A stretch of DNA of 64,000 nt from Candidatus Berkelbacteria bacterium (GTDB lineage: Bacteria > Patescibacteriota > UBA1384 > XYA2-FULL-43-10 > CAINNR01): assembly GCA_026397205.1 (NCBI GenBank), contig JAPLVH010000006.1, positions 13,392 to 77,391 on the forward strand, in the 5' to 3' direction. Shown here one piece after another: positions 6,553 through 63,132 of the stretch. The notes under the pieces are model-generated. The model made no database searches. It was given only the letters and a program-made list of their open reading frames with translations, and was not told where the DNA came from. The position numbers and the translations under genes are program-made. Each line of letters begins with the position of its first letter. Within the stretch, counting starts at the first letter, position 1.

Positions 6553-6558
6553 TTTTAT

Positions 6559-6601: not shown

Positions 6602-6892
6602 TTGTTTTTGTCTGGCGGTTTTATTCCCTCCGACGCTCTGATCGGAATCCCAACATTCGCCGGCTGGCGAATCGTCGGGGCGTGTCAAAATCCATGTGCT
6701 TGCATTTTTTCCTTGACTTTTATTTCGCCATTTGATAAATTGATTTTGTTGTTCCAATCCGAAGGGAGCTGGTTGAAGATGCCGGCACGAAAAGTCAGAG
6801 TCAAAAAATAAAAGTCACCGGAGGATTCGACACCGAATTCGTTCAAGAACCGGCCAAAGGCCGAAGGTTCGTATCTTTGGCTAAAAATTCTA

Positions 6893-7087
6893 TTGGCGAT
6901 ATTGATTATTTCATTTGTTGTCGGAGTTTTGGCCGCGATTTATTATGCCGTGATTGCACCACAAAACGCGGCGAGAAATTTCCGTGAAAATCAAAAAACA
7001 ACTTCGAGTTTGTATACTCCCTCTCCGGCCGAAACTGGTCGGAATTTTTGTCTCAAATTTTGGCAAGAAAAACCGGGGAATTTTTAA
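6893..7087 (+). CDS. Possible small membrane protein (64 aa, TTG start). Weak call.
   Basis: One TM helix, 'ILIISFVVGVLAAIYYAVIA'. No ATG start. The stop lies inside a palindrome/terminator. Could be non-coding. Confidence 0.2.
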   Translation: MAILIISFVVGVLAAIYYAVIAPQNAARNFRENQKTTSSLYTPSPAETGRNFCLKFWQEKPGNF

Positions 7088-7180
7088 GCTCCAGCTTAAA
7101 AATTCCCCAAAATGCTTTTTATTTTCTGAATTTCGTGCTTATAATTCGGGAAAAATTAAGCTCCAGCTTATTTTTTCCCG
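7075..7180. repeat. Two tandem, near-identical 34-bp palindromes sharing the core TAAGCTCCAGCTTA. The first is followed by a T-rich tract and may act as a plus-strand terminator.
   Basis: 7075-7108 'ggggaatttttaagctCCagcttaaaaattcccc' is a perfect 16+2+16 palindrome. 7147-7180 'cgggaaaaattaagctCCagcttattttttcccg' has one mismatch. Confidence 0.6.
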
Positions 7181-7198
7181 AAAACAAATTCCAGAAAA

Positions 7199-7228
7199 AA
7201 AATCAAGCCCGGGATTTGGGCTTGTGGG
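7199..7228 (-). terminator. Rho-independent terminator of the minus-strand small-protein gene
   Basis: Minus-strand reading is 'caagcccaaatcccgggcttg' + TTTTTTTT. The stop codon lies at the stem base. Confidence 0.6.
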
Positions 7229-7394
7229 TTTGGGATTTTCGCGTTTTTGGTTTTGAATCCGGATCTGGATGCGTCATTGCGGAACGAATTTGAGTCATTC
7301 GAGCAATTGCTGATTCGTCAAGTTTCATTGCGTCTGAAGGAATTCTTCTGCCAAGGGGAATAACAATAACGGGACCGTCATTTTTCTTCCTCAT
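7203..7394 (-). CDS. Small basic protein (63 aa), unknown function. A complete mono-cistronic unit with promoter, strong RBS and terminator.
   Basis: GGAGGTG 8 nt upstream of the ATG. Divergent promoter TTGAAA-17-TATACT. Terminator at the stop. C-terminus is Lys/Arg/Pro-rich. Confidence 0.5.
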   Translation of the reverse strand: MRKKNDGPVIVIPLGRRIPSDAMKLDESAIARMTQIRSAMTHPDPDSKPKTRKSQTHKPKSRA

Positions 7395-7417
7395 TTCGGT
7401 GACACCTCCATAATTTC

Positions 7418-7446
7418 AGTATAACCTCTTGACAAGATTTTTTCAA
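7418..7446 (-). promoter_or_regulatory. Sigma70-type promoter for the small basic protein gene (minus strand)
   Basis: On the minus strand: TTGAAA (7441-7446), a 17-nt spacer, TATACT (7418-7423). Confidence 0.5.
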
Positions 7447-7457
7447 TCGGCTAAAAT
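7429..7457 (+). promoter_or_regulatory. Sigma70-type promoter for greA. Its -35 abuts the -35 of the divergent minus-strand promoter.
   Basis: TTGACA (7429-7434), a 17-nt spacer, TAAAAT (7452-7457). GGGAG RBS before the greA ATG at 7550. Confidence 0.6.
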
Positions 7458-7549
7458 TACAATATAGTTTAAAAATTAAAAACTGGGCTAGGACATATCC
7501 TCTAAAAAGGGATTTATTTTTTTAGAGCCCGATCAATTAGGGAGAAATT

Positions 7550-8296: not shown

Positions 8297-9550
8297 TCAG
8301 CTTTCGATTATTCCGCCGCCCAAAACTTCGTCCCACTTCGCCCGACCAAAGCGGGCTTCGCGGGACGGGCTTCGCCCGTAAATCACCGCCGACTGGCCGG
8401 GTGTAATTGCTCGTTGTGGCTCGGCGAATATGACTTTGATGTTGTCGCTAGATCCTTCGACAAGCTCAGGATGACTTGTGATTTTACAAGTCACTTCCGA
8501 ATGCCGGTATCTGATTTTAACTGAAAGATTTGAATTCTGAATTATGAATTCTGAATTGTGAATAAAATTTAAACTATTGACAATCATTTCTTTTTTGAAC
8601 ACTTCATTGTTGCCGCCAACAATCAACTGATTTTTTTCTTGATTAAATCCAACAACATAAAGCGGTTTTTTATCTTTGATTTTTGATTTGTCATTTTGAT
8701 TTTTGATTTTTGATTTTTGATCTATTAACTTTCTCTGTCCAATCGTATAATTTAGCAAACCTTGATGCTGACCGACAACATTGCCTTCGATATCGACAAT
8801 TTCGCCCGGCAGAAAAAACTTTTCTGGCAAATACCGGCGCAAAAAGTTGCGGTAATCTTTGTCGGCAAAAAAACAGATTTCCTGACTCTCCGGCTTCTCT
8901 TTGACTGGCAAATTATATTTGATCGCCAATTTTCGGACATCGATTTTTTTCATCTCGCCTAGCGGAAATAAAATTTTCGCCAACTGATTTTGATTCAGCC
9001 GGTAAAGCATATATGACTGGTCTTTGGTTTCGTCAACGCCTTTCAACAAATGATATTCCTTTTTACTTTTTGATTTATCATTTTGATCTTTGATTTTTGA
9101 TCTTTGATTTATTCTGGCATAGTGTCCCGTCGCCAATTTTTCGCAACCGATTGCCAATGCTTTTTTCAGAAGCAAATCAAATTTTATTTTTTCGTTACAG
9201 ATAATGCAGGGATTTGGCGTCCGCAAATTTTGATATTCGGTCAAAAAATAATCTACGACAGCTTTTTTGAACTCGCTTTTGGCGTTTATAACATAAAATG
9301 GAATGTTTAATTTCGCCGCTACCGCCCGGGCATCTTCCAGCGCCTGATAATCGCAACAGTGGTTGTCGCGCCGACAAGTTTTGCCATCCGGGAATAAGGG
9401 ACTTGTCCCGCGAAGTCCGCCTTGGGCAGACGAAGTGGGATCGCTCCACAATTTCAAAAACAGCCCGACCAAGTCGTGCCCGTAATCCTTTAGGATTTTT
9501 GCCGCCACGGCGGAATCAACACCACCGGACAGGGCAATTGCTAATTTCAT
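8297..9550 (-). CDS. mnmA: tRNA-specific 2-thiouridylase MnmA, carrying two in-frame heptamer-repeat insertions
   Basis: 'MKLAIALSGGVDSAVAA' PP-loop, catalytic Cys motifs, 417 aa. Inserted peptides 'KSKIKDQNDKSKSKKEY' and 'DQKSKIKNQNDKSKIKDKK' are encoded by (TGATTTT)n tracts. Confidence 0.85.
   Translation of the reverse strand: MKLAIALSGGVDSAVAAKILKDYGHDLVGLFLKLWSDPTSSAQGGLRGTSPLFPDGKTCRRDNHCCDYQALEDARAVAAKLNIPFYVINAKSEFKKAVVDYFLTEYQNLRTPNPCIICNEKIKFDLLLKKALAIGCEKLATGHYARINQRSKIKDQNDKSKSKKEYHLLKGVDETKDQSYMLYRLNQNQLAKILFPLGEMKKIDVRKLAIKYNLPVKEKPESQEICFFADKDYRNFLRRYLPEKFFLPGEIVDIEGNVVGQHQGLLNYTIGQRKLIDQKSKIKNQNDKSKIKDKKPLYVVGFNQEKNQLIVGGNNEVFKKEMIVNSLNFIHNSEFIIQNSNLSVKIRYRHSEVTCKITSHPELVEGSSDNIKVIFAEPQRAITPGQSAVIYGRSPSREARFGRAKWDEVLGGGIIES
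8670..8725. repeat. (TGATTTT)n heptamer tract, in frame inside mnmA
   Basis: 'tatctttgatttttgatttgtcattttgatttttgatttttgatttttgatc'. Confidence 0.7.
9061..9112. repeat. (TGATTTT)n heptamer tract, in frame inside mnmA
   Basis: 'ttttactttttgatttatcattttgatctttgatttttgatctttgattt'. Confidence 0.7.
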
Positions 9551-10443: not shown

Positions 10444-10865
10444 TTTTTAAGTATCTTAAGTTGCTTAATTTTCTTCCGATAATCTTTTATCGCTTTCCTC
10501 ACCCCCTCTTCGGCCAAAATTGAGCAGTGGTATTTTGCCGGCGGGAATTTGCCCATCTCGGCGGCGATCTGTTTTGATGTTAGCTTTAACGCTTCTTCAA
10601 GTGATTTACCTTTCACTAGTTCGGTCGCAATAGACGACGAAGCAATCGCCGCCCCACAGCCCAAGGTTTGGAATTTGATGTCGGAAATGTATTCTTCTGG
10701 CTTACCGCTTACTAGCTTACGACTTACGACTTTTATAAAAATTCGCATAACATCCCCGCAATTCGGATTGCCGACAGTTCCGACGCCGTCGGCACCTTTA
10801 ATCTCACCGAGATTTCTCGGGTTTCGAAAATGCTCCATTATTTTTTCACTATATAAATTTTCCAT
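10440..10865 (-). CDS. iscU: Fe-S cluster assembly scaffold IscU/NifU-like, with an internal heptamer-derived insertion
   Basis: Three conserved Cys: 'NPNCGD', 'LGCGAA', 'YHCS'. Insert 'KVVSRKLVSGKP' is encoded by a (GCTTAC)-type tract at 10701-10730. Confidence 0.8.
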   Translation of the reverse strand: MENLYSEKIMEHFRNPRNLGEIKGADGVGTVGNPNCGDVMRIFIKVVSRKLVSGKPEEYISDIKFQTLGCGAAIASSSIATELVKGKSLEEALKLTSKQIAAEMGKFPPAKYHCSILAEEGVRKAIKDYRKKIKQLKILKK

Positions 10866-10871: not shown

Positions 10872-10903
10872 TCTTAAAAATCTTAAGTGGCTTAAGTTAC
10901 TTA
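10872..10903. repeat. Operon-junction palindrome (CTTAAGTGGCTTAAG variant) between the iscS stop and the iscU start
   Basis: 'tcttaaaaatcttaagtggcttaagttac'. No Shine-Dalgarno before the iscU ATG. Confidence 0.55.
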
Positions 10904-12142
10904 TTTCATCGGTGACATATTTCTAAGTTTTTCGACGATTTTTGGCATTACTTCCAATACCTTACCAATTTCCGCCTTGGTTGTCGAGCGGCCGAGGGTG
11001 AAACGAATCGAGCCGTGACACTGCTCTGGGTGCAAACCCATCGAAATCAGGACATGAGACGGCTCAAGCGAGCCGGAGGTGCAAGCCGAACCGGTCGAGG
11101 CGGCAATATTTTCCATATCAAGATTCAATAAAATTGATTCGCCTTCGGCATTCAAAAAAGAGATGTTGACATTCGCCGGCGACCGAAACTCCCGGCTACC
11201 GTTCAAAAATGAATTTGGAATTTTCAAAAGTCCATCGATTAATCCGTTTCTTAAATTTTCAATTCCATTTTTATTATTTATTATTTTTGATTTATTATTT
11301 AAAATTTCCACCGCTTTCCCAAACCCAACAATTCCCGCAACATTCTCCGTCCCGGCTCGCTTTTTATACTCCTGTCCGCCACCAACAATTTGCTGTTTGA
11401 TTTCGACCCCGTCGCGAAGATATAAAAGTCCGACACCTTTGGGTCCGTAAATTTTGTGTGCCGACAGCGTCAAAAGATCAACATGCAAATAGTCAACATT
11501 CATTTCAAAATACTCCGCCGCCTGCACCGCATCAGTGTGAAAAAAAATCCTACCGATATTTTGATCTTTGATCTTTGATTTTTGATTTTGTTTTTCAATC
11601 ATTTTCCCGATTTCCCGAATTGGCTGAACCGTTCCGATTTCGTTGTTGACATACATAATTGAAACCAATACTGTGTTTTTTTTGATTGCCGCCTCGACGT
11701 CGGCAACTTCGATAATTCCGTCGCGATTCGGCTTAACATATGTCGCTTCAATTTTCCCCTCTTCCTCCAACTCCTTGACCGACTGCAGCACCGCATGATG
11801 TTCAAACACACTGGTGATAATATGTGGTTTTTGGTTTTCTTTTTCTATTTTTACTCTGTCATTTTGCATTTTGATTTTTGATATTTGATTTTCTATAATT
11901 CCTCTTATCGCCAAATTGTCGGATTCCGATCCACCCGAAGTGAAAATAATTTCCTCCGTTTTGCAATTCAAAAACTCGGCAATTTTTCGCCGCGCTTCAT
12001 CAACGGCAAAACGCGCTTCCTGGCCGAGACCGTGAATCGAGGACGGATTTCCAAACTTATCGCTAAAATATGGCAGCATCTTTTTCAGCACATTATCATC
12101 CACCAAAGTCGTAGCCGCGTGATCTAAATATATTTTTTTCAT
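10901..12142 (-). CDS. iscS: Cysteine desulfurase IscS/NifS, with two in-frame heptamer insertions. The likely start is M at 12142; the tool ORF extends to 12166 through repeat sequence.
   Basis: 'MKKIYLDHAATT', PLP-Lys motif 'SAHKIYGPKGVGLLY', C-terminal catalytic Cys 'SACTSGS'. Inserts 'QNQKSKIKDQNIG' and 'ISKIKMQNDRVKIEKENQ'. Confidence 0.85.
   Translation of the reverse strand: MKKIYLDHAATTLVDDNVLKKMLPYFSDKFGNPSSIHGLGQEARFAVDEARRKIAEFLNCKTEEIIFTSGGSESDNLAIRGIIENQISKIKMQNDRVKIEKENQKPHIITSVFEHHAVLQSVKELEEEGKIEATYVKPNRDGIIEVADVEAAIKKNTVLVSIMYVNNEIGTVQPIREIGKMIEKQNQKSKIKDQNIGRIFFHTDAVQAAEYFEMNVDYLHVDLLTLSAHKIYGPKGVGLLYLRDGVEIKQQIVGGGQEYKKRAGTENVAGIVGFGKAVEILNNKSKIINNKNGIENLRNGLIDGLLKIPNSFLNGSREFRSPANVNISFLNAEGESILLNLDMENIAASTGSACTSGSLEPSHVLISMGLHPEQCHGSIRFTLGRSTTKAEIGKVLEVMPKIVEKLRNMSPMK
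11558..11598. repeat. (TGATYTT)n heptamer tract, in frame inside iscS
   Basis: 'ttttgatctttgatctttgatttttgattttg'. Confidence 0.7.
11848..11895. repeat. Heptamer tract (GTCATTTTGCATTTTGATTTTTGATATTTGATTTTC), in frame inside iscS
   Basis: Same arm sequence as in the complete elements at 12.2, 23.2 and 26.0 kb. Confidence 0.7.
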
Positions 12143-13902: not shown

Positions 13903-13934
13903 CCTAAGTTGCTTAGGTGACTTAAGTGACTTAG
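13903..13934. repeat. Operon-junction palindrome (two copies, CCTAAGTTGCTTAGG + TGACTTAAGTGACTTAG) between the upstream gene stop and the tatD start
   Basis: 'cctaagttgcttaggtgacttaagtgacttag'. Confidence 0.6.
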
Positions 13935-20695: not shown

Positions 20696-21554
20696 TTACA
20701 ACATTATATAATTTTAGCCAGTCCTCAATTGTCAATTCTTGCGCTCTGATTTTTTCCGACAACCCCGCACTTTTAATTATATCAGATGCTTCGGTTTTAG
20801 AGATATGAAGTCCGGCGGCCAAATTATTTTCCAAGGTCTTTCTTCGGCTAGCAAAACCAAATTTGACAATTCGAAATAGATCCGCTTCCTTAACTTTACG
20901 CTTTTCGCTTTTAGTTTTGAGTTTGATAATCGCCGACTCAACTTTTGGCAGCGGGAAAAACGAAGTTGATTTTACAATGTCGACAATTTCCACATCGGCA
21001 TAAAACTGAACTGAAACCGACAAAAGCGACATCTCGCCAGGACGAGCAACAATTCGTTCGGCAACTTCTTTCTGCACCAACAAAACCATCAACTCCGGTT
21101 TGTTGTCCGCTTCCAAAAATTTTCTAATGATGGCAGAAGTAATATTGTAGGGAATATTTGCGACGACTTTGTAGTCATAAGCCGTAAGCTGTAAGCTGTA
21201 AGCCGATAAATCCAGATCCAGCGCGTCTTCATTTACTATTTTAATTTTTACTTTGTCATTTTTCTTGCGATAGCTGACCCTGCGGGGATTTTTGATATTT
21301 GATATTTGATTTAGAAGTTCGGCGAGAAAGTCGTCTTTTTCAATTGCCACGACCCGGCCGGCTCGGCTGACAAGTTCCTCGGTCAAAACTCCCAGCCCCG
21401 GCCCGATTTCGATGACGGTGTCGGTTGATTTTAAATCCGCTGCTTCGACGATTTTCGCCAACACCTCATCGTCAACCAAAAAATTCTGCCCCATATTCTT
21501 TTTCGCCCAAATTTTATTCGCCTGCAAGAATTGAATCAGTTCTTCTTTGTTCAT
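20676..21554 (-). CDS. rsmA: 16S rRNA (adenine1518/1519-N6)-dimethyltransferase RsmA/KsgA, with heptamer insertions
   Basis: 'MGQNFLVDDEVLAKIV...VIEIGPGLGVLTEEL' KsgA signature. Inserts 'SAYSLQLTAY' and 'KNPRRVSYRKKNDKVKIKI'. Confidence 0.85.
   Translation of the reverse strand: MNKEELIQFLQANKIWAKKNMGQNFLVDDEVLAKIVEAADLKSTDTVIEIGPGLGVLTEELVSRAGRVVAIEKDDFLAELLNQISNIKNPRRVSYRKKNDKVKIKIVNEDALDLDLSAYSLQLTAYDYKVVANIPYNITSAIIRKFLEADNKPELMVLLVQKEVAERIVARPGEMSLLSVSVQFYADVEIVDIVKSTSFFPLPKVESAIIKLKTKSEKRKVKEADLFRIVKFGFASRRKTLENNLAAGLHISKTEASDIIKSAGLSEKIRAQELTIEDWLKLYNVVNSKIKN
21181..21203. repeat. (TGTAAGC)n heptamer tract, in frame inside ksgA
   Basis: 'gccgtaagctgtaagctgtaagc'. Confidence 0.65.
21245..21318. 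repeat. Mini-element fragment (GATAGCTGACCCTGCGGGGA module + (TGATATT)n arm), in frame inside ksgA
   Basis: 'gtcatttttcttgcgatagctgaccctgcggggatttttgatatttgatatttgatttag'. Confidence 0.7.
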
Positions 21555-22150: not shown

Positions 22151-23107
22151 TTATTGCTTGAGTTCTTCGACCAAAACGTTAGAACAACCGGCCGACGGAC
22201 AACCAAGTTGAGTGAGATAAGTTTGCGACAAATCGAGAACCACGCCATCCGGTGGCGAAGCGTTGCCCCAAGTGGCGTTGACGCTGACGATGATTGATTT
22301 GTTGCCTGACGAAATTCGGATTAAAGTTCCTTTTGGATATTTTGAAATGCCGGAAACAACATAGTTTGAAACCAGCGTCATCGTCGCCCGACCACGAACC
22401 GAGGAAAGTACCGTAACTTTCGTTCCGGTGTAATGAATTTCAGTTTTTGCTTCTTTGGTGATTTCAGTCGACAAAAGTGTCCGCTCAACCTCTTCGCCGT
22501 CTTCGCGACGAACGCGGTAGGTTAATTTTTTCTCGCCATTTATGCCAGCTTCAGTTCGTTTTTTGCCATAATCGAGATTTGGATCATCTTTATTTACAAT
22601 TTGGAAAGCGATCGGTTTCGTCTCAACAATATTTGTAATCGCAACTCTGGTGATGATAATTTTATCGCCATCGGCAATGGCCGAATCTAATTTGAAATTG
22701 GTTTTGTCATCGGTGCCGAGTTCGATATTTTTCTCGGTCAAAAGCTCACCGGCGGTTTTCAGCCAACTGCGAAAAATTATGGCTTTTTTGCCGTCAATAA
22801 TTGTGATCGCCGGCGCTTGATGAACAGTAATAACACTTCCAATTCTCGCCTCCGGATCAGGCAAAGTCGAGGCACGATCTTCGGGGTTGATCGTGATGCC
22901 GAGATCTTTGGCAATTACCTCGACCTTCAAACTACGGCTTGTACCGACGACTTCCGACGACTTTCCCGATGGCGCAATAACGATAAATTTGTAAGCAAAA
23001 CTTGGCGACGATTCGATGACTCCTGATGCCAGCGATTTTCGAGAAACAAAAAAGCCAGCGAAAATGATGGAAACCAAAACAATCGAGATGATAAAATTTC
23101 GACGCAT
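22151..23107 (-). CDS. Secreted/anchored cell-wall protein with G5-like and C-terminal 3D (MltA-like double-psi) domains
   Basis: N-terminal TM/signal. 'YTGTKVTV' G5-like segment. C-terminal 'GTLIRISSGNKSIIVSVNATWG...DGVVLDLSQTYLTQLG' resembles 3D-domain consensus. Confidence 0.45.
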   Translation of the reverse strand: MRRNFIISIVLVSIIFAGFFVSRKSLASGVIESSPSFAYKFIVIAPSGKSSEVVGTSRSLKVEVIAKDLGITINPEDRASTLPDPEARIGSVITVHQAPAITIIDGKKAIIFRSWLKTAGELLTEKNIELGTDDKTNFKLDSAIADGDKIIITRVAITNIVETKPIAFQIVNKDDPNLDYGKKRTEAGINGEKKLTYRVRREDGEEVERTLLSTEITKEAKTEIHYTGTKVTVLSSVRGRATMTLVSNYVVSGISKYPKGTLIRISSGNKSIIVSVNATWGNASPPDGVVLDLSQTYLTQLGCPSAGCSNVLVEELKQ

Positions 23108-23110
23108 AGG

Positions 23111-23236
23111 ATTATTATATCAAATATCAAATATCAAAGATCAAAATGTTGGTCGGCACTCCGTGCTGAGATTTTTATATTCTTTTTACCTTTTTCATCT
23201 ATCATTTTGATTTTTGATATTTTATTTTTGATTTTT
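23111..23236. repeat. Complete heptamer-array mini-element (intergenic): (ATCAAAT/ATCAAAG)n arm, core TTGGTCGGCACTCCGTGCTGAGATTT, unique segment, inverted (TGATTTT)n arm
   Basis: 'tatcaaatatcaaatatcaaagatcaaaatgttggtcggcactccgtgctgagattttta...catctatcattttgatttttgatattttatttttgatttttcc'. Fills the whole gap between two minus-strand genes. Confidence 0.7.
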
Positions 23237-23238
23237 CC

Positions 23239-25284
23239 TCAGATTTCCTCCTTCACTTCCTCCGGAATTTCCTCGAGGAAGCGCGACGGCAGATTCATTG
23301 TGAGCTTGCCAAAATAGGTTCGTTCGCCGGCATAAAGCAAATACAGCGTTTTTTGCGCCCGAGTCATTCCGACATAACACAGCCGGCGCTCCTCTTCGAC
23401 TTGATCCGGCTCAAATTCACTTCTGGAGTGCGGCAGAATCCCCTCCTCGAGACCGATAACGAAAACAATCGGAAATTCCAAACCCTTGGCCGAGTGGAGC
23501 GTCATTAATGTGACAACATTTTCATTTGATTTTATCTCGTCGGAGTCCTGATAGAGTGCGACCTTTTCTAAAAAATCATCGAGCGGACTTTCGCTGTCAG
23601 CCGTTTCGTTGTAAGTCGCAACCGTTTTTAATTCGAGAATATTTTCCCAACGACCCTCGCCCTCGGCCGTGCCGTCGAGAATAAAGTCCTTATAGCCGGA
23701 ACTCTCAGTGATGATGTCAATCATATCGGCAACCGACAAATTATCTTTACGCTCGCGAATTCCGTTGATCCAGGATAAGAATTTGGCGATTTTTTCTGGC
23801 AGCTCAACCGATAAATTTTCGGCGGCAAAATATTTTTCCAAGGTCTTAGCGCCTATTCCTCGCGGAGGGAGGTTTATCGCCCGCTCAAAGGAAACTCGAT
23901 CGTTCGGATTGGCGACCAAACGGAGATAGGCCAAAATGTCTTTGACTTCGCGCCGTTGGTAGAAGCGAATGCCGCCGACGACCCGATAGGGAATTTCGTA
24001 ACGCAAAAACGCTTCTTCGACCGCCCGGGATTGGGCGTTGGTGCGATACAAAACGGCAAATTGAGAAAAGCTTGTAGTTTGTAGTTTGTAGTTTGTAGAT
24101 AAATCCAAAAATCTAGCCACGGAGTGGCTACCATCATTTTGATTTTTGATTTTTGATTTTTGATTTTGCGCAAGAGATGTAATCTCTTGCGCAACAAACT
24201 CCGCTTCATCTTTTTCATTTAACGCTTCGTAAATCTGGATTTTCTGACCATCGGGATTATCGGTCCACAAAGTTTTCTCGGTTTTGTGCCGATTATATTT
24301 AATTAAAGCATCGGCGCCGACCAAAATATTTTTTGTCGAGCGATAATTTTGCTCAAGTTTTATCACCTTCGTTTGGGGAAAATCGCGCTCAAAATTTAAG
24401 ATATTTCGAAAGTTGGCGCCGCGAAAACCGTATATTGACTGCGAATCATCGCCGACGACACATAAATTTTTATGAATTTTCGACAGCTGGCGAATCCAGA
24501 GATACTGAACCTGGTTCGTATCCTGATATTCGTCAACCAAAATGTATTTGAAAATCCGCTGATATTTTTCCAGAGCCGTTGGGTTATCATCGAAAAGTTT
24601 GACGCAGTTCAAAAGCAAGTCATCGAAATCCATCGCCCCGATTGATTTTAGATATTTTTGATATTCCGCGTAGACATCGCGAACAATTTCATCAAAGTGT
24701 GAGTTGGCGTATTTGGAATACTCTTTTGGACCGAGAAATTCATTTTTCGCGCCAGAAATGTGAGAAAGAATGGCGTTTGGATTGTAATTTTTCGGATTGA
24801 TATTTTGATCGCGCATGATTTTCTTCACCACCGAAAGCTGGTCCTGCGAATCATAAATTGTAAAATTCGACGGGTAGCCGATATGCTGGGCCTCGCGTCG
24901 CAAAATCTTGACGCAAATTGAGTGGAAAGTGCCAAGCCATGGTAGTTTGTAGTTTGTAGAATTTTCTTCGTCATTCCAGTGAAGATGGGAATCTACTGAT
25001 AGTCCAGCCACGGAGTGGCTACCATCATTTTGATTTTTGATTTTTGATTTTTGATTTAGCAGAATTTCCATTCGCGCTTTCATCTCTCCCGCCGCTTTGT
25101 TGGTAAAAGTGACACAAAGGATATTGAAAGGTGAAACTTTTTTTTCTGATATCAAAAAAGCCAGTCGGTGCGTCAACGCCCGGGTTTTGCCGCTGCCGGC
25201 ACCAGCCAGGATTAACACCGGCCCTTCGGTTGTCCGAACCGCTTCCTGTTGTGGCGGGTTTAGTCCTTCGAAAATGTTTTTCAT
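23239..25284 (-). CDS. pcrA: UvrD/PcrA/Rep-family ATP-dependent DNA helicase, with two composite repeat insertions
   Basis: Walker A 'AGAGSGKTRALTHR', motifs Ia-VI ('TFHSICVKILR', 'VDEYQDTN', 'NYRS', 'TLHSAKGLEF'). Inserts '...NQKSKIKNQNDGSHSVAGLS...STNYKLP...' occur twice. Confidence 0.85.
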   Translation of the reverse strand: MKNIFEGLNPPQQEAVRTTEGPVLILAGAGSGKTRALTHRLAFLISEKKVSPFNILCVTFTNKAAGEMKARMEILLNQKSKIKNQNDGSHSVAGLSVDSHLHWNDEENSTNYKLPWLGTFHSICVKILRREAQHIGYPSNFTIYDSQDQLSVVKKIMRDQNINPKNYNPNAILSHISGAKNEFLGPKEYSKYANSHFDEIVRDVYAEYQKYLKSIGAMDFDDLLLNCVKLFDDNPTALEKYQRIFKYILVDEYQDTNQVQYLWIRQLSKIHKNLCVVGDDSQSIYGFRGANFRNILNFERDFPQTKVIKLEQNYRSTKNILVGADALIKYNRHKTEKTLWTDNPDGQKIQIYEALNEKDEAEFVAQEITSLAQNQKSKIKNQNDGSHSVARFLDLSTNYKLQTTSFSQFAVLYRTNAQSRAVEEAFLRYEIPYRVVGGIRFYQRREVKDILAYLRLVANPNDRVSFERAINLPPRGIGAKTLEKYFAAENLSVELPEKIAKFLSWINGIRERKDNLSVADMIDIITESSGYKDFILDGTAEGEGRWENILELKTVATYNETADSESPLDDFLEKVALYQDSDEIKSNENVVTLMTLHSAKGLEFPIVFVIGLEEGILPHSRSEFEPDQVEEERRLCYVGMTRAQKTLYLLYAGERTYFGKLTMNLPSRFLEEIPEEVKEEI
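24071..24169. repeat. Composite mini-element inside the helicase gene: (GTTTGTA)4, inverted core AGCCACGGAGTGGCT, (TGATTTT)5
   Basis: 'gcttgtagtttgtagtttgtagtttgtagataaatccaaaaatctagccacggagtggctaccatcattttgatttttgatttttgatttttgatttt'. The core is the reverse complement of the intergenic core motif CACTCCGTG. Confidence 0.75.
24941..25058. repeat. Second composite mini-element inside the helicase gene: (GTTTGTA)n, spacer, core, (TGATTTT)5
   Basis: 'ggtagtttgtagtttgtag...agtccagccacggagtggctaccatcattttgatttttgatttttgatttttgattt'. Confidence 0.75.
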
Positions 25285-25323
25285 AAGTTGCTTAAGTTTC
25301 TTAAGTGACGTAAGTCACTTATT
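25285..25323. repeat. Operon-junction palindromes immediately upstream of the helicase start codon
   Basis: 'taagttgcttaagtttcttaagtgacgtaagtcacttat' includes AAGTGACgtaaGTCACTT. Confidence 0.55.
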
Positions 25324-25659
25324 CATAATAGCCGAAAAAAATCCACTCGGCAATCAAAAAAGGCGCAGGATTTACTTGCTTATAGGGAACAAAAATTTTA
25401 ATTATTGCCCTGCAGTATCACTACGCCTTTGAGGGGTGTCGCGAAAACGACTTAGAATCGCTTCGTGGCATCCCTCAATTGATATTTTATCTATCAAGAG
25501 ACACCTTTCACGTTTCTTTTTTCCCCGTGTTCTTTGTCCTTACCAAATTTTTTTGATTTTCTGATTTACTTTTTCTTTTTGTTTTATTTGGTTTGGTTTT
25601 GGCAAGGAGATCAGAAAAAAAATTTCTAATGTCAAATTTCTAATTTCTAAAAAATATTT

Positions 25660-25838
25660 GACATTTGTAATTAGGAATTAGGCATTTATTTCTAACTTCC
25701 TTGCCAACGGTAAAATCAACGAAAAAACTCCTCGGAAGAGGAGCACATTAAAAATTTCAAATGACTAATTTCTAATGCCAAACAAAATCCATTTGACATT
25801 TGTAATTTGGAATTAGGCATTTATTTTATTCGCCCCTC
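25660..25838. repeat. Two direct copies (about 36 nt each) of ATTTGACATTTGTAATTNGGAATTAGGCATTTATTT, with (ATTTCTA)n tracts
   Basis: Copies at about 25663-25700 and 25800-25838. Related copies at 3206-3240 and 54930-54965. Confidence 0.5.
25720..25745 (-). terminator. Possible minus-strand rho-independent terminator in the long intergenic region
   Basis: Minus-strand reading 'ctcctcttccgaggag' + TTTTTTC. No annotated minus-strand gene upstream of it in the gap, so possibly a small RNA. Confidence 0.35.
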
Positions 25839-25968
25839 CAGACGAATGAGTGCTATTAAATTGTTAATGTTATATTTATTATAACGCACAATTCCCCAAT
25901 TTGTCAAGACATAAAGCGACTATTTTCGATCAGACAAAAAATTAGTCAGTGTGGAAATAGATAATTTA

Positions 25969-26073
25969 TATCAAAAATCAAAATGTTGGTCGGCACTCCG
26001 TACCGGGATTTTATTTCTTTAGATATATTTTATTTGTCATTTTGATTTTTGATATTTGCTTTTTGATTTTCTT
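25969..26073. repeat. Complete heptamer-array mini-element (intergenic). The right arm runs into the promoter of the downstream gene.
   Basis: 'tcaaaaatcaaaatgttggtcggcactccgtaccgggattttatttctttagatatattttatttgtcattttgatttttgatatttgctttttgattttc'. Confidence 0.7.
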
Positions 26074-26090
26074 TCCGATTTGACTTATTG

Positions 26091-26099
26091 TGCTATAAT
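26091..26099 (+). promoter_or_regulatory. Extended -10 promoter element (TGcTATAAT) for the TPR gene
   Basis: 'tgtgctataat' about 17 nt upstream of the ATG at 26116. It sits just downstream of the mini-element arm, in the 'ccgatttgacttattg' segment, so whether the element supplies it is unproven. Confidence 0.4.
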
Positions 26100-26115
26100 A
26101 TATCAAGAGGCAAAT

Positions 26116-26586
26116 ATGAACCGTGATCGGACAAAAAGCACAATACTCTATTTGCTGGTTTTGGTAGTTCTGGCGACGAGTTTCATCATTTTTGGTGTTT
26201 TTTATTTGAAAGACGCCAAAACTTCCGACAAAAATTCAACGACTTCGACCGCAACTGTGCCGACCGGCGATAATCAAAACCAGAATTTGGAGGAACTACC
26301 CCCCGACCAAAAACTTTACGCCGCGGCGATCGAGAGCATTGACGCTAAAAATTATAATCAGGCGATCAGTAATTTAACCGAGGCGATCAAGGAAAATCCC
26401 GACAATCCGAGTTACTATTCGGTAAAATCGGAGGCCGAGGTTTTGGCCGGCAAAAAAGATGATGCAATCGCAACGCTCGAAGCCGGATTGAAAATCAATC
26501 CGGACAATGAGGTCCTAAATTCCAAGCTGGATGTTCTTCAGAAGAATGATCTGGCGCCGGCGAATCAGGATACGCCGAGACAGTAA
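26116..26586 (+). CDS. TPR-repeat protein with N-terminal membrane anchor
   Basis: Likely start 'MNRDRTK' (tool start 26056). TM helix, then TPR-like 'YNQAISNLTEAIKENPDNPSYY...AGLKINPDN'. Confidence 0.5.
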   Translation: MNRDRTKSTILYLLVLVVLATSFIIFGVFYLKDAKTSDKNSTTSTATVPTGDNQNQNLEELPPDQKLYAAAIESIDAKNYNQAISNLTEAIKENPDNPSYYSVKSEAEVLAGKKDDAIATLEAGLKINPDNEVLNSKLDVLQKNDLAPANQDTPRQ

Positions 26587-26619
26587 AAAATTCCAAATTT
26601 CTAATTTCTAATTTCAAAA

Positions 26620-61224: not shown

Positions 61225-61338
61225 AAATCAAAAATTAAATATCAAAGATCAAAATGTTGGTCGGCACTCCGTGCCGGGATTTATTCTTTTTCATCTTTTT
61301 TATTTATCATTTTAATTTTTGATATTTGATTTTTGCTT
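61225..61338. repeat. Complete heptamer-array mini-element filling the intergenic gap: (ATCAAAA)n arm, core TTGGTCGGCACTCCGTGCCGGGATTT, inverted (TGATTTT)n arm
   Basis: 'aaatcaaaaattaaatatcaaagatcaaaatgttggtcggcactccgtgccgggatttattctttttcatcttttttatttatcattttaatttttgatatttgatttttgc'. Confidence 0.7.
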
Positions 61339-63132
61339 TTAGTATCCCATCTCTCGCAAATATTTTATCGTTTTTGTCAGTCCGGCTTCGAGCGAAATTT
61401 TCGGCGACCAGCCGAGAAGTTTTTTTGCTCGGCTGATATCCGGCTTTCGGCGAGTCGGATCGGAAATCGCCGGCGCAACATGAATAATTTTTGACGACGA
61501 CTTCGTCAACTTGATAACTTTTTCCGCCAACTCTAGCATCGTGCACTCCTGCGGATTGCCAATATTGATCGGACCCTCCAGATCCGAGTGGATGAATTTC
61601 ATCTGGGCCTCGATTTGGTCATCAACAAAGCAAAAACTTCTGGTTTGATTTCCACTGCCCTGAATCGTGATTTCTTCGCCAGACAGCGCTTGCTTGATAA
61701 AGTTGGTGACAACCCGACCATCATCCGGATCCATCATTGGGCCGTAGGTGTTGAAAATTCGGACAATGCCACTGTTGAGACTTTTTTGCCGGCGGGCTTG
61801 GTAAATCAGGGCTTCGGCAAATCGTTTGCCTTCATCATAACATGATCGCATTGAATATGACCAAACATTGCCGGAATAACTCTCCTTTTGCGGATGCTCA
61901 AGTGGGTCGCCGTAAATTTCCGAGGTTGACGATTGAAAAAACCGGGCGCTGTTTTTGTGGGCAAACTTTAAAAGATTTTCGACACCGATAGAATTTGTCT
62001 CCAAAGTTTTAATCGGATCGAGATAATACTTCGGTGGCGACGCCGGGCAGGCGTAGTTCAAAACAAAATCAAACTGACCGCGGGATTTTATCGGCTGACA
62101 AATATCGTGTTTGACGAATGTGAATCTGGGAAACCTCTTTAATTGATCGAGATTGCGCCGATTTCCGGTTTGCAAATTATCAATGACGACAACTTCGCCA
62201 CCGGCAGTCAAAATTCTTTTTGCCATATTGGCGCCTAAAAATCCGGCGCCGCCGGCAATTAAATATTTTTTGCCAGCCGGTTTGAGTTTTTTTGTCGTTG
62301 TTTTTTTCGGCGATGACGGCAAATCCAAGGACAATTTCTGGTGGCGATAATAGTTCAAAATCCGAGCGCGGTAAAAAATCGCCAGTGTGTCGGTAATCAT
62401 TTTTATGATCGTTTTCGGACTGATACCGGAAGCGATAGCGTTAAAATCCAGCTCAACCGGTGCCTCAAAAATCCGCCGATAACCAAGCTGATGGGCGATA
62501 ACCAGCATTTCCAAATCGAAAGCGTACTGTTTAACTAATGCTCGCGGCAAAATATCGTTGGCAACATTACGACGCAAAAATTTCAGGCCAGCTTGAGTGT
62601 CGGTGACATTCAGGCCGAAAAGAATTTTGATCAGCCGCGAATAAATCCAGGAGTAAATTTTTCGCCGCGTCGGATAGTTGACCCGGCTGGCCGGATGCCG
62701 TTTTGAGCCAATGACAAAATCGGCATCAAAGATTTCCAGAAGGCGGACGAATTTGTCGAACTGCTTAGGATCAAAATCACCACCGGCATCAGTGAAAGTA
62801 ATAATTTCGCCGGAAGCTTTTTCGGCGCCGAATTTCAGGGCATAACCTTTGCCGTGATTCGGGAAATATTCAAAAACCTTGACATTTTTTGATTTCGCTC
62901 GCCTCGCCTCTTTCGCCGTTTTGTCCGGTGAGCCATCAACGACGACGATAACTTCAAAATCATATGATAATTGATCGTGAGTTCTGACGATTTTCTGAAT
63001 CGTCCGATAGATATTTTTTTCCTCGTTGTAGGCCGGAATGACGATCGAAAGTTTTGGGCGCTGATTTTTCGTCAACTTCAAAACCCTCCCCCGTTTTGCC
63101 CCTCCGGAAGATTTTTGATTTGATTCTGGCAT
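61339..63132 (-). CDS. Bifunctional fusion: N-terminal GT2 polyprenyl-phosphate glycosyltransferase (ArnC/DPM1-like) + C-terminal UDP-glucuronate decarboxylase/UXS-like SDR
   Basis: GT2 'LSIVIPAYNEEKNI...VIVVVDGSPDKT...FTDAGGDFDP'. SDR 'YLIAGGAGFLGANMAKRIL', 'YDEGKRFAEAL'. Confidence 0.7.
   Translation of the reverse strand: MPESNQKSSGGAKRGRVLKLTKNQRPKLSIVIPAYNEEKNIYRTIQKIVRTHDQLSYDFEVIVVVDGSPDKTAKEARRAKSKNVKVFEYFPNHGKGYALKFGAEKASGEIITFTDAGGDFDPKQFDKFVRLLEIFDADFVIGSKRHPASRVNYPTRRKIYSWIYSRLIKILFGLNVTDTQAGLKFLRRNVANDILPRALVKQYAFDLEMLVIAHQLGYRRIFEAPVELDFNAIASGISPKTIIKMITDTLAIFYRARILNYYRHQKLSLDLPSSPKKTTTKKLKPAGKKYLIAGGAGFLGANMAKRILTAGGEVVVIDNLQTGNRRNLDQLKRFPRFTFVKHDICQPIKSRGQFDFVLNYACPASPPKYYLDPIKTLETNSIGVENLLKFAHKNSARFFQSSTSEIYGDPLEHPQKESYSGNVWSYSMRSCYDEGKRFAEALIYQARRQKSLNSGIVRIFNTYGPMMDPDDGRVVTNFIKQALSGEEITIQGSGNQTRSFCFVDDQIEAQMKFIHSDLEGPINIGNPQECTMLELAEKVIKLTKSSSKIIHVAPAISDPTRRKPDISRAKKLLGWSPKISLEAGLTKTIKYLREMGY

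What the first reader, a model, noticed from the sequence alone, without database searches (positions are those of the whole stretch)
25285..26115. An 830-nt non-coding gap packed with repeats: duplicated 36-nt motif, (ATTTCTA)n tracts, a possible orphan minus-strand terminator, a structured GC-richer segment and a full mini-element feeding a promoter
This is the longest intergenic region in the window, and it contains five things.
- A GC-richer, potentially structured segment at 25400-25500 (gaggggtg...catccctc with internal stems). It lies upstream of the helicase start on the minus strand.
- Two 36-nt direct repeats, ATTTGACATTTGTAATT(A/T)GGAATTAGGCATTTATTT. Each contains TTGACA and is flanked by (ATTTCTA)n.
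- A hairpin + T-run terminator-like structure on the minus strand (25720-25745) with no ORF feeding it. This is compatible with a small RNA.
- A complete heptamer-array element whose right arm ends about 18 nt before the TGcTATAAT extended -10 and AGAGG RBS of the TPR gene, so the element appears to have inserted just upstream of that promoter.
- This gap also marks the boundary between the housekeeping block and the surface-protein locus.
Basis: seen in the sequence. Interest (0 to 1): 0.5.

Follow-up and report, generated by a model that had tools for sequence, protein, structure and literature searches.

The report
Hidden structured RNA gene, repeat-invaded
The 830-base "empty" gap in this Candidatus Berkelbacteria genome holds a conserved, roughly 516-nt structured non-coding RNA gene that matches no known RNA family, and the genome's 7-base repeat mini-elements have colonised its variable hairpin tips and the neighbouring promoter spacer.

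Summary

**The RNA gene.** On the minus strand, a perfect TTGACA/TATAAT promoter (25907-25878) drives a ~516-nt RNA (25871->25356).
- It ends at a covarying intrinsic terminator just upstream of the helicase.
- The "orphan terminator" (25744-25722) is an internal hairpin of this RNA.
- The "GC-richer segment" is its 3' domain.
- The two "36-nt repeats" and the ATTTCTA tracts are two copies of a ~90-nt palindromic heptamer-array module. They sit in the RNA's two hypervariable sites.

**Conservation.** The locus is conserved in 14 distinct Berkelbacteria-type sequences and in 3 more distant CPR lineages.
- Conserved RNA modules are 74-93% identical, against 59-67% for the flanking genes.
- 36 of 60 base pairs in the 3' domain show compensatory changes.
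- Rfam 15 gives no match.

**The mini-element.** The element at 25968-26072 is a real ~100-nt insertion between the divergent RNA and TPR promoters. It has two more intergenic copies and two in-frame copies inside the helicase gene.

**Function.** The RNA's function is unknown. I infer a stand-alone, trans-acting RNA, possibly with short and long isoforms.

The parts
25878..25907 (-). Sigma-70-type promoter of the RNA gene: -35 TTGACA at 25907-25902 and -10 TATAAT at 25883-25878.
   Evidence: 12/12 consensus match. TTGACA and TATAAT are invariant in all 9 aligned relatives. L005, L004 and L076 have a comparable promoter.
25356..25871 (-). Whole candidate RNA gene, about 516 nt. It runs from AACAUUAACAA just after the -10 to the U-run of the terminal terminator.
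   Evidence: Aligns at 72.8% over 552 nt with L002, where the helicase protein is only 62% identical. It is 405-596 nt in 14 distinct relatives. No Rfam match.
25829..25871 (-). 5' module: conserved leader AACAUUAACAAUUUAAUAGCACUC followed by UUCG-(U)CUGGAGGGG-CGAA.
   Evidence: 86-93% identical to relatives. The GGAGGGG motif also occurs in L005 and L004.
25745..25828 (-). Hypervariable site V1. In the window it is filled by copy 2 of a ~90-nt palindromic heptamer-array module.
   Evidence: V1 is 32-124 nt long and 36-61% identical among relatives. The duplication is D1/D2.
25722..25744 (-). Internal hairpin T: GCUCCUC-UUCC-GAGGAG followed by U6.
   Evidence: Terminator scan. The stem sequence is invariant in 13 of 14 relatives while the loops vary. 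In L005 and L004 the equivalent hairpin has no U-run.
25599..25710 (-). Hairpin H2. It has a conserved, covarying base (CCGUUGGCAAGGAAG...CUCCUUGCCAA) and a hypervariable tip. In the window the tip is copy 1 of the heptamer-array module, which includes the first 36-nt repeat (25656-25691) and (ATTTCTA)n at 25621-25650.
   Evidence: Inverted repeat I2. Fold z = -5.6. The base stem changes GGCAGGG/CCUUGCC to GGUAGGG/CCUUACC to GGCGGGG/CUCGCC among relatives.
25547..25598 (-). A-rich linker L2.
   Evidence: Variable, 48-64% identical. No cognate-specific pairing with V1.
25356..25546 (-). 3' domain D3: a multi-helix junction plus a long terminal hairpin ending in U6, which is the terminator.
   Evidence: RNAalifold predicts 60 pairs. 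Covariation: 94% of cells paired and 36/60 pairs with changes on both sides, against 39-50% paired in slid controls. The covariance model finds L005 (64 bits), L004 (34 bits) and L076 (26 bits).
25968..26072 (+). MITE-like mini-element: (ATCAAAA)n arm, hairpin core GGTCGGCAC-TCC-GTACCGGG, T-rich filler, then a (TTTTGAT)n arm. It is inserted between the RNA promoter and the TPR promoter.
   Evidence: 18-nt perfect inverted arms (I3). Single-strand DNA fold z = -5.2. Full copies at 61239-61340 (87%) and 23131-23235 (85%). Absent at this site in relatives.
26080..26118 (+). TPR gene promoter and leader: TTGACT 26080-26085, extended -10 TGCTATAAT 26091-26099, SD AGAGG 26106-26110 and ATG 26116.
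   Evidence: Sequence. The pattern AATTTGAC-N8-TGnTATAMT-N-GAGGC-N4-ATG recurs upstream of the TPR orthologues of L002, L092, L095 and L098. TPR domains are confirmed.
25284..25353 (-). Helicase promoter-like hexamers (TTGCCG-17-TATTAT, 25353-25325) and a leader made of 9-nt CTTAAGNNA-type repeats (25284-25322) that abuts the helicase ATG.
   Evidence: Promoter scan gives 9/12. Tandem-repeat finder. A 29-nt match to 4082-4110. Similar CTTAAG repeats lie in front of the helicase in L098 and L102.
23131..23235 (+). Sister copy of the mini-element. It fills the gap between the helicase stop and the G5 gene start.
   Evidence: The same junction is 21 nt in L098 and 59 nt in L092.
61239..61340 (+). 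Sister copy of the mini-element between two glycosyltransferase genes.
24940..25054 (-). In-frame variant of the mini-element inside the helicase ORF: (ATCAAAA)n-ATGATGGTAGCCACTCCGTGGCT...(CTACAAA)n. It encodes NQKSKIKNQNDGSHSVA...STNYKL.
   Evidence: Absent from six homologous helicases (columns 78-115).
24070..24160 (-). Second in-frame variant of the mini-element inside the helicase ORF.
   Evidence: Absent from homologues (columns 382-411).

Best explanation
The gap is a hub of three transcription units, and its core is an unannotated gene for a structured non-coding RNA.

**Shown**
- A consensus sigma-70-type promoter on the minus strand (25907-25878) precedes a ~516-nt conserved sequence (25871->25356).
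- That sequence has a modular build: a conserved 5' leader with a GGAGGGG motif, hypervariable site V1, an invariant hairpin followed by a U-run (T), a hairpin with a covarying base and a hypervariable tip (H2), an A-rich linker, and a ~190-nt multi-helix 3' domain (D3).
- The last long hairpin of D3 is an intrinsic terminator.
- The locus is conserved in Berkelbacteria-type genomes and, in diverged form, in three other CPR lineages. It matches no Rfam family.

**Inferred**
- It is a stand-alone, trans-acting RNA and not the helicase leader.
- In the Berkelbacteria clade the internal terminator gives a short form of about 150 nt and a read-through long form of about 516 nt.
- The balance may be set by pairing of GAGGGGC in the 5' module with GCUCCUC, the 5' arm of the terminator.
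- D3 may switch between two folds, because GAGGGAUGCC can pair with either an upstream or a downstream partner.

**The repeats**
- They are secondary decoration.
- This genome carries expanding 7-nt (and 9-nt) tandem arrays and small hairpin-core elements. These settle wherever they are tolerated.
- At RNA hairpin tips they arrive as palindromic modules that merely lengthen a helix. This accounts for the two 36-nt repeats and the ATTTCTA tracts.
- They also settle between promoters (the 103-nt element at 25968-26072), between genes, in front of start codons, and in frame inside proteins.
For: **Promoter**
- 12/12 consensus match.
- Invariant in 9 aligned relatives.
- Present in the distant homologues.

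**Conservation above the coding background**
- 5' module 86-93%, T 88-92% and D3 74-83% nucleotide identity.
- Helicase gene 65-67% and TPR gene 59-62%.
- V1 and L2 drift at 36-64%.

**Structure**
- RNAalifold predicts 60 pairs in D3, 14 of them compensatory, on a MAFFT alignment.
- On 17 sequences, 94.2% of cells are paired and 36/60 pairs have changes on both sides.
- 0 of 500 shuffles reach these values. Slid controls give 39-50% paired.
- Conserved U-G and G-U pairs in helix 3, together with the U-runs, fix the strand as minus.

**Homologues and context**
- The covariance model finds homologues in L005 (64 bits), L004 (34 bits) and L076 (26 bits), each downstream of its own TTGACA-17-TAnAAT promoter.
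- The gap is free of called genes and syntenic in five further contigs.
- The region is not coding. Indels are not multiples of three, and the only short ORFs are not conserved.

**Stand-alone gene**
- Small ORFs, and in L005 a separate terminator, a promoter and three genes, lie between the RNA and the helicase.

**Repeats as insertions**
- V1 and the H2 tip differ in length and content in every lineage.
- The mini-element is absent from the orthologous spacer.
- It has 2 other intergenic copies and 2 in-ORF copies.
Against: - There is no expression data. The transcription start, both 3' ends and the two isoforms are inferred from sequence alone.
- D3 has no promoter of its own, so if hairpin T terminates efficiently the best-conserved domain would rarely be made.
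- The 5'-module hairpin is not supported by covariation. The proposed GAGGGGC:GCUCCUC pairing is invariant in the Berkelbacteria clade, so it can be neither confirmed nor refuted there.
- The alignment holds only 17 sequences, 14 of them from one clade. The 17-sequence alignment was fitted to the model, which favours the structure.
- The RNA lies upstream of and co-oriented with the helicase in all four lineages. This fits a cis-leader role as well as plain synteny.
- No homologue was found in 32 other loci, most of them from CPR genomes, within 6 kb of their helicases.
- No function can be assigned.
Confidence: 0.75

Rival explanations
1. The conserved sequence is a very long cis-acting 5' leader of the pcrA/uvrD-type helicase operon, acting as an attenuator or riboswitch. 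The two terminators would gate transcription into the helicase.
For: - The RNA is upstream of and co-oriented with the helicase in the Berkelbacteria clade, L005, L004 and L076.
- It has two hairpin-plus-U-run structures and mutually exclusive pairings: GAGGGGC with GCUCCUC, and GAGGGAUGCC with either of two partners.
- The helicase promoter-like hexamers after the terminator are weak, at 9/12.
Against: - In L001/L095 and L092, one or two unrelated small ORFs lie between the RNA and the helicase.
- In L005, an extra terminator, a TTGACA promoter and three genes lie between them.
- In L004, a 489-aa ORF and an opposite-strand ORF intervene.
- The most conserved nucleotides of the whole RNA lie in the loops of the terminal terminator hairpin. 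That is unlike a riboswitch expression platform.
- The region enclosed by the putative antiterminator is hypervariable, so there is no aptamer there.
Confidence: 0.12
2. There are two independent RNA genes. One is a ~150-nt sRNA running from the promoter to hairpin T. The other is a separate ~360-nt RNA (H2 plus D3) with its own, unrecognised promoter or processing site.
For: - Hairpin T is a canonical intrinsic terminator in all 14 Berkelbacteria-type sequences.
- The modules before and after it fold independently.
Against: - No conserved promoter-like hexamers lie between T and D3.
- In L005 and L004 the equivalent hairpin lacks a U-run.
- In L005, L004 and L076 a single promoter precedes the whole unit.
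Confidence: 0.08
3. The gap is non-functional spacer DNA that has accumulated selfish repeats. The apparent structure is a by-product of palindromic repeat modules.
For: - Repeat modules make up about 300 of the 831 nt.
- Heptamer arrays are everywhere in this genome.
- Palindromic modules fold well on either strand.
Against: - The conserved, covarying parts (5' module, T, H2 base, D3) are the non-repeat parts.
- Those parts are more conserved than the neighbouring genes.
- They show compensatory changes across lineages that carry entirely different repeats.
Confidence: 0.02
4. It is a highly diverged copy of a universal RNA (RNase P RNA, tmRNA, 6S or SRP RNA) that Rfam models fail to recognise because of the large insertions.
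For: - The size (300-600 nt), strong promoter, hypervariable hairpin tips and retention in tiny CPR genomes all suit a housekeeping RNA.
- There are faint, by-eye resemblances: AGAACCNGGGUUUA to RNase P CR-V, and CAGCUCC to a tmRNA acceptor 3' strand.
Against: - No Rfam hit even at E<=10 on the gap, nor on six relatives.
- ARAGORN finds no tmRNA.
- The RNase P-like string is not conserved in the window itself, which reads GAACACGGGGAAAA. No GGAAAGUCC partner exists.
- There is no T-arm or CCA end.
- D3 diverges fast, scoring 26-64 bits in lineages whose helicases are 51-53% identical. That is unlike the universal RNAs.
Confidence: 0.03

Closest known systems
Cyanobacterial STRR heptamer repeats and small dispersed repeats (SDR) of Nostoc (Mazel et al. 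1990; Elhai et al. 2008, Genome Res 18:1484). Recalled from memory; the paper is not held in the library.
   Same: - Genome-wide tandem 7-nt arrays.
- Very small hairpin elements nested inside those arrays.
- Occurrence between genes, inside ORFs, and in tolerated loops of structural RNAs.
   Different: - A different phylum: CPR/Berkelbacteria rather than heterocystous cyanobacteria.
- Different, AT-rich unit sequences (TTTTGAT, AATTTCT).
- 9-nt arrays are also present.
- Many arrays abut start codons.
- No sequence relationship was tested.
Rickettsia palindromic elements (RPE; Ogata et al. 2000, Science). From memory.
   Same: - Roughly 100-nt palindromic elements inserted in frame into conserved housekeeping proteins without destroying them.
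- Here the hosts are the helicase and MnmA.
   Different: - Built from heptamer arrays around a short GC hairpin.
- Unrelated host lineage.
- No sequence similarity was tested.
MITEs that sit next to promoters, such as Neisseria Correia elements, ERIC/IRU and REP/REPIN. From memory.
   Same: - Terminal inverted repeats.
- Size of about 100 nt.
- Multiple dispersed copies.
- Insertion directly upstream of a gene's core promoter.
- A conserved hairpin: the stem covaries between the window (GCCAC-TCC-GTGGC) and L005 (GGCCTC-TCC-GAGGCC).
   Different: - No target-site duplication can be read, because the insertions lie inside arrays.
- No candidate transposase or RAYT is in the window.
- The arms are tandem arrays rather than unique inverted repeats.
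Orphan large structured bacterial ncRNAs (OLE, GOLLD, ROOL, raiA motif).
   Same: - Several hundred nucleotides long.
- Multi-helix structure supported by covariation.
- Own promoter and terminator.
- No known biochemical function.
- Narrow phylogenetic range.
   Different: - No match to any of their Rfam models.
- Found in CPR bacteria.
- Has an internal terminator-like hairpin and two hypervariable insertion sites.
Transcription attenuators and riboswitch expression platforms.
   Same: - Mutually exclusive pairings around a hairpin followed by a U-run: GAGGGGC or GAGGAG with GCUCCUC.
- A segment (GAGGGAUGCC) that can pair with either of two partners.
   Different: - No recognisable aptamer or leader peptide.
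- The segment between the competing strands is hypervariable.
- The switchable helix in D3 does not overlap the terminal terminator.

Membership tests
Any Rfam 15 family (including RNase P, tmRNA, 6S, SRP, OLE, GOLLD, ROOL, raiA and riboswitches) | Covariance-model score at or above the family's gathering threshold | tested here: not met
   There are 0 hits at gathering thresholds on the whole window. At E<=10 on the gap, only chance-level snoRNA and miRNA hits of 14-21 bits appear. There is nothing on the RNA in L081, L084, L085, L004, L005 or L076.
tmRNA | tRNA-like domain (acceptor stem, T-arm, CCA) and a tag reading frame | tested here: not met
   ARAGORN finds no tRNA or tmRNA in the window. 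No T-arm or conserved tag ORF is visible in the alignments.
Structured non-coding RNA gene (generic) | Base pairs maintained by compensatory substitutions across homologues | tested here: met
   14 of 60 pairs are compensatory on the MAFFT alignment. On 17 sequences, 36 of 60 pairs change on both sides, with 0 of 500 shuffles as high and slid controls at 39-50% paired.
Structured non-coding RNA gene (generic) | Own promoter and terminator, with no conserved ORF | tested here: met
   Promoter match is 12/12 and conserved. The terminal stem covaries (AAGGCG/CGCCUU to AAGGCAC/GUGCCUU) and is followed by a U-run. Indels break every reading frame.
Structured non-coding RNA gene (generic) | A detectable transcript with defined ends | not testable with these tools
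   No RNA-seq or transcription-start data are available.
Intrinsic (Rho-independent) terminator | GC-rich stem-loop directly followed by a U-run on the transcribed strand | tested here: met
   Hairpin T at 25744-25727 has 7 pairs, 4 of them GC, a 4-nt loop and TTTTTT. It is present in 14 of 14 Berkelbacteria-type sequences. The D3 terminal hairpin is followed by U6-7.
MITE / REP-like mini-element (for 25968-26072) | Terminal inverted repeats and several dispersed copies in one genome | tested here: met
   The arms are 18 nt and 100% complementary (I3). There are three full intergenic copies at 85-87% identity plus two in-ORF variants.
MITE / REP-like mini-element (for 25968-26072) | Presence/absence polymorphism at orthologous sites | tested here: met
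   The element is absent from the promoter spacer of relatives. The G5-helicase junction is 131 nt here, 21 nt in L098 and 59 nt in L092. The helicase insertions are absent from six homologues.
MITE / REP-like mini-element (for 25968-26072) | Target-site duplication and a cognate transposase | tested here: inconclusive
   The flanks are themselves heptamer arrays, so no duplication can be read. No transposase-like ORF was identified in the parts of the window I annotated. The rest of the genome is not available.
STRR-type heptamer repeats | Tandem arrays with a strict 7-nt period, dispersed genome-wide | tested here: met
   Period 7 is the only period from 3 to 12 with signal. There are 30 arrays against 0 in shuffles.
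STRR-type heptamer repeats | Cyanobacterial origin and the STRR1-3 unit sequences | tested here: not met
   The organism is Candidatus Berkelbacteria. The units are TTTTGAT, AATTTCT, TTGTAGT and similar, not the cyanobacterial units, which I recall from memory.
Repeat-RNA arrays (ToxI-type antitoxin, CRISPR, TIGR) | At least three regularly spaced repeat units next to a cognate protein gene | tested here: not met
   There are only two copies of the 36-mer, 135 nt apart, and each sits inside a different hairpin of the conserved RNA. They are absent from relatives. The neighbouring genes are the helicase and the TPR gene.
Riboswitch or attenuator leader of the helicase | The regulated gene lies directly downstream in one transcription unit | tested here: inconclusive
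   This holds in the window, L002 and L098. However, ORFs, promoters or terminators intervene in L001/L095, L092, L005 and L004.

The most novel reading that the evidence does not exclude
The RNA is a new class of large structured RNA in CPR bacteria, and its repeat-filled hairpin tips are functional.

- The tips carry the same 7- or 9-nt arrays that replace Shine-Dalgarno sequences in front of roughly a third of the genes.
- One example is an 18/18-nt antisense match between the H2 tip and the leader of the neighbouring dockerin-protein gene at 26594-26611.
- The array type changes together in the RNA and in that leader in L102.
- On this reading the RNA would act as a repeat-addressed, trans-acting regulator of translation of array-led mRNAs.
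- A bistable 3' domain would serve as the sensing or effector part.
Probability: 0.08. Interest if true: 0.9.

Novelty: new variant of a known kind. Interest (0 to 1): 0.62.

Why it matters
- **A large conserved RNA in a minimal genome.** CPR bacteria have some of the smallest, most streamlined genomes known, and almost nothing is known about their non-coding RNAs. A 400-600-nt RNA with a consensus promoter and well-supported structure is more conserved than its neighbouring genes and is kept across lineages whose proteins are about 50-65% identical. It is likely to do something important, and it is absent from the Rfam release searched here. Large structured RNAs of unknown function are rare and have repeatedly led to new biochemistry.
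- **A natural tolerance map.** The locus shows which RNA sites accept 30-125-nt insertions.
- **A genome-wide repeat system.** Heptamer and nonamer arrays plus hairpin-core mini-elements insert in frame into essential enzymes. They also sit directly in front of start codons. This bears on how these organisms initiate translation and how their proteins acquire lineage-specific insertions.
- **A practical lesson.** Long "empty" gaps in CPR MAGs should be screened for RNA genes before they are dismissed as repeat junk.

Tried and rejected
- **Known RNA family.** Rfam at gathering thresholds and at permissive E-values found nothing on the window or on six relatives. ARAGORN found nothing.
- **By-eye resemblance to RNase P.** I checked the P4/CR-V-like string against the alignments and dropped it. 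The string is not conserved in the window, and no partner strand exists.
- **By-eye resemblance to tmRNA.** I checked the acceptor-like string and dropped it. There is no T-arm or CCA end.
- **Small protein or leader peptide.** An ORF behind the SD-like GGAGGGG is not conserved. It reads as 16 aa in the window, 4 aa in L002 and none in L083 (sequences).
- **Long-range helix between the U/G-rich V1 and the A-rich linker L2.** Cognate pairs are no more stable than non-cognate pairs: -18.2 against -19.4 kcal/mol.
- **Plus-strand promoters from the TTGACA in each 36-mer.** There is no -10 at the right spacing.
- **Targets antisense to the conserved 5' leader.** The only match in the window is the RNA gene itself.
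- **Phage origin.** Neither the RNA core nor the mini-element core occurs in the viral contig collection.
- **Wider distribution.** A second-generation covariance model found no further homologues in 32 other loci, most of them from CPR genomes.
- **Literature.** Three searches for CPR, Patescibacteria or Berkelbacteria ncRNAs returned nothing relevant. The Elhai 2008 paper could not be read.
- **Replication origin.** Considered and rejected. There is no lasting strand or skew switch, and the conserved G-U pairs indicate RNA-level selection.
Full report
**Setting**

The window comes from a Candidatus Berkelbacteria (CPR/Patescibacteria) metagenome-assembled genome.
- The small TPR protein encoded at 26116-26586 is 100% identical to an NCBI protein of that name on an 82-kb contig.
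- The closest helicase relatives are Berkelbacteria and other CPR MAGs at 62-63% protein identity.
- The gap 25285-26115 lies between a UvrD/PcrA-type helicase (23239-25284, minus strand) and the TPR gene on the plus strand.

**Checking the observation**

- The hairpin has arms at 25429-25445 and 25462-25478.
- The two 36-mers are 97% identical.
- The minus-strand hairpin with a T-run lies at 25744-25727.
- The mini-element has perfect 18-nt inverted arms at 25968-25985 and 26038-26055.
- The TPR gene has TGCTATAAT, AGAGG and ATG in the stated places.

Period-7 repetition is a strong property of the whole window. It has 30 arrays against none in shuffles, and no other period from 3 to 12 gives signal.

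Two details do not hold.
- 6553-7549 is a longer stretch without a large ORF, although it has plausible 63-64 aa ORFs.
- The TTGACA in each 36-mer has no -10 partner.

**What the gap really contains**

The decisive evidence is comparative.
- In L002 the same TPR gene, gap and helicase arrangement exists. Its helicase protein is 62% identical.
- The window's minus strand from 25883 to 25356 aligns with L002 at 73% over 552 nt.
- An exact-pattern scan of metagenome contigs brought in 11 more loci.
- Look-ups of TPR homologues brought in further contigs.
- In all of them a gene-free gap of about 650-1000 nt separates the TPR gene from the helicase or from small ORFs in front of it.

A nine-sequence alignment shows the following elements in order:
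- an invariant TTGACA, a ~17-nt spacer and TATAAT;
- a conserved leader and a GGAGGGG motif;
- a hypervariable stretch;
- an invariant GCUCCUC-loop-GAGGAG followed by a U-run;
- a hairpin with a conserved base and a variable tip;
- an A-rich linker;
- a highly conserved domain of about 190 nt that ends in a long hairpin and a U-run.

The promoter in the window is a 12/12 consensus match. From the base after the -10 to the last U-run the unit measures 516 nt in the window (25871->25356). In 14 distinct relatives it measures 405-596 nt.

**Evidence that it is an RNA under selection**

*Conservation.*
- The conserved modules are 74-93% identical between the window and three relatives.
- The helicase and TPR genes are 59-67% identical at the nucleotide level.
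- The variable modules are 36-64% identical.

*Covariation.*
- RNAalifold on a MAFFT alignment of the 3' domain predicts 60 pairs, 14 with compensatory changes.
- A covariance model built from that alignment finds diverged homologues in L005 (64 bits), L004 (34 bits) and L076 (26 bits).
- Each homologue lies 300-420 nt downstream of its own TTGACA-17-TAnAAT promoter.
- On the resulting 17-sequence alignment, 94% of cells pair and 36 of 60 pairs change on both sides.
- No shuffle reaches these values, and sliding the partners drops pairing to 39-50%.
- That alignment was fitted to the model, which favours the structure. The MAFFT-based result points the same way.

*Strand and coding potential.*
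- Conserved G-U pairs and the U-runs fix the strand as minus.
- Indels break all reading frames, and no short ORF is conserved.

*Family membership.*
- Rfam 15 has no match, even at permissive thresholds, on the window or on six relatives.
- ARAGORN finds nothing.

- The "orphan terminator" is the internal hairpin T (25744-25722).
- The "GC-richer structured segment" lies inside the 3' domain D3 (25546-25356).
- The two 36-nt repeats and the ATTTCTA tracts belong to two copies of a ~90-nt palindromic heptamer-array module, at 25604-25691 and 25736-25826 (D1 and D2).
- One copy occupies the tip of hairpin H2. The other occupies hypervariable site V1.
- In other lineages these two sites hold quite different content: U/G-rich runs, other heptamer or nonamer palindromes, or almost nothing.
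- The modules are therefore lineage-specific decoration of tolerant sites, not functional repeats of the locus.

- The consensus structure instead pairs GAGGGAUGCC with the upstream GGUGUCUC.
- That upstream helix is retained in L004 and L076, where the downstream partner is deleted.
- The downstream pairing still shows some covariation at its outer pairs, and it can form in L005.
- A two-state 3' domain is therefore possible but unproven.

**Is it a helicase leader?**

The RNA is upstream of and co-oriented with the helicase in all four lineages. This keeps the leader hypothesis alive. Several observations argue against it.
- Small unrelated ORFs separate the RNA and the helicase in L001/L095 and L092.
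- An additional terminator, a promoter and three genes separate them in L005.
- Other ORFs intervene in L004.
- The U-run of the terminal terminator is followed by TTGnnn-17-TAnnAT hexamers in several relatives and in the window.
- The most conserved bases lie in the loops of the terminal hairpin.

I therefore favour a stand-alone, trans-acting RNA.

In the Berkelbacteria clade the internal hairpin T is a canonical terminator, so a short form of about 150 nt and a long form of about 516 nt are likely. In L005 and L004 the hairpin has no U-run, which suggests the ancestral product is the long RNA. GAGGGGC in the 5' module is complementary to the 5' arm of T, and some full-length minimum-energy folds choose that pairing. 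It is a plausible antiterminator, but the sequences do not vary, so it cannot be tested here. The function remains unknown.

**The mini-element**

- The element at 25968-26072 has two other full copies in the window, at 23131-23235 and 61239-61340 (85-87% identity).
- Two variants lie in frame inside the helicase ORF.
- A seven-protein alignment shows both helicase copies are lineage-specific insertions.
- L005's helicase carries the same SKIKNQNDG-encoding element at another site. Its hairpin stem has changed in a compensatory way (GCCAC-TCC-GTGGC to GGCCTC-TCC-GAGGCC).
- In the gap, the element is an insertion between two divergent promoters. The distance from the TPR-side TTGAC to the RNA's -35 is 171 nt here and 76 nt in L098.
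- The same spacer has taken other insertions in L102 and L104.
- The TPR core promoter and leader are conserved in relatives, so the element has not replaced them. Whether it alters their activity is unknown.

**Comparison with known systems**

- The repeat system works like the STRR and small-dispersed-repeat elements of heterocystous cyanobacteria, and like Rickettsia palindromic elements. It occurs in an unrelated phylum with different units. These comparisons rest on my memory of the literature, because the key paper could not be read.
- The RNA resembles the orphan large bacterial ncRNAs (OLE, GOLLD, ROOL, raiA) in kind only. Membership of each was tested through Rfam and not met.

**Verdict**

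- The main object, a conserved ~516-nt structured RNA gene of no described family, was not recognised as such.
- I put the existence of this RNA gene at about 0.75-0.85. My confidence in its mode of action is low.
- The data are limited to 17 sequences, there is no expression evidence, and no further homologues appeared in 32 other loci, most of them from CPR genomes.

Noticed in passing
window 24940-25054 and 24070-24160 (helicase); 8529-8563, 8668-8725 and 9081-9110 (MnmA, 8297-9550); 11268-11892 (class-V aminotransferase); 20894-21313 (KsgA): Heptamer arrays and hairpin-core mini-elements sit in frame inside conserved housekeeping genes. They add peptides such as QKSKIKNQND. MnmA matches 229 residues to a 201-position Pfam domain, which fits an insertion.
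   Followed up: partly
window, 45 nt upstream of start codons, for example 4115, 9652, 10440, 13108, 19165, 22151, 23239, 26620, 27619, 28059, 54013, 57636 and 60247: About 17 of 53 genes have a 7- or 9-nt tandem array running right up to the start codon, with no Shine-Dalgarno sequence. Other genes have a clear GGAGG. This suggests a repeat-built leader class with an unknown role in translation.
   Followed up: partly
window 4082-4110, 10447-10468, 10882-10903, 13912-13933, 25284-25322 and 58074-58095; L098 and L102 in front of the helicase: A 9-nt CTTAAG(T/A)NA repeat family sits specifically in very short gaps just before start codons. It is conserved in front of the helicase gene in relatives.
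   Followed up: partly
window 25633-25650 versus 26594-26611; L102 H2 tip versus L102 2323-2375: The tip of RNA hairpin H2 is perfectly antisense (18/18 nt) to the leader of the dockerin-domain gene two genes away. In L102 both carry a different, nonamer array type, and the cognate duplex is -42 kcal/mol against about -17 to -21 for most non-cognates. This could be regulatory pairing, or it could merely reflect genome-specific repeat families.
   Followed up: partly
window 23108-23130 (minus strand, upstream of the G5-domain gene 22151-23107): TTTGATATAAT, an extended -10, ends only 6 nt before the ATG of the G5/DUF348 gene. This suggests a leaderless mRNA. The (TTTGATA)n array merges into this -10 element.
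   Followed up: no
window 6553-7549: A 997-nt stretch between the penicillin-binding-protein-like gene and greA has no ORF of 120 aa or more. It has 63-64 aa ORFs and a GC-rich palindromic unit (GTCATTGCGAG...) of the kind also inserted in the L102 gap. A TTGACA-17-TAAAAT promoter lies near 7430-7460.
   Followed up: no
L098 (RNA linker L1 and downstream of the RNA); L102 and L104 promoter spacers: Relatives carry other GC-rich hairpin insertions at the tolerant sites of the same locus. One example is CTCCGACGCTCAGCGTTGC...GCGCTAAGCGTTGCAG in L098. These mark the sites as recurrent insertion hot spots.
   Followed up: no
L076 7812-7906 and L005 7768-7869 (inside helicase ORFs): There are weak, sub-threshold Rfam hits to RF03531 (n00280, "C. 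difficile sRNA included into helicase gene") at 39.6 and 30.8 bits against a gathering score of 65.2. They probably reflect conserved helicase coding sequence.
   Followed up: no
L005 696-2111 and L076 about 4700-5030: In the distant lineages the RNA lies downstream of dnaB. In L005 a LuxR-family ORF intervenes. In L076 dnaB ends with an intein-like IVHNS segment. This suggests an ancestral dnaB - RNA - pcrA neighbourhood.
   Followed up: no
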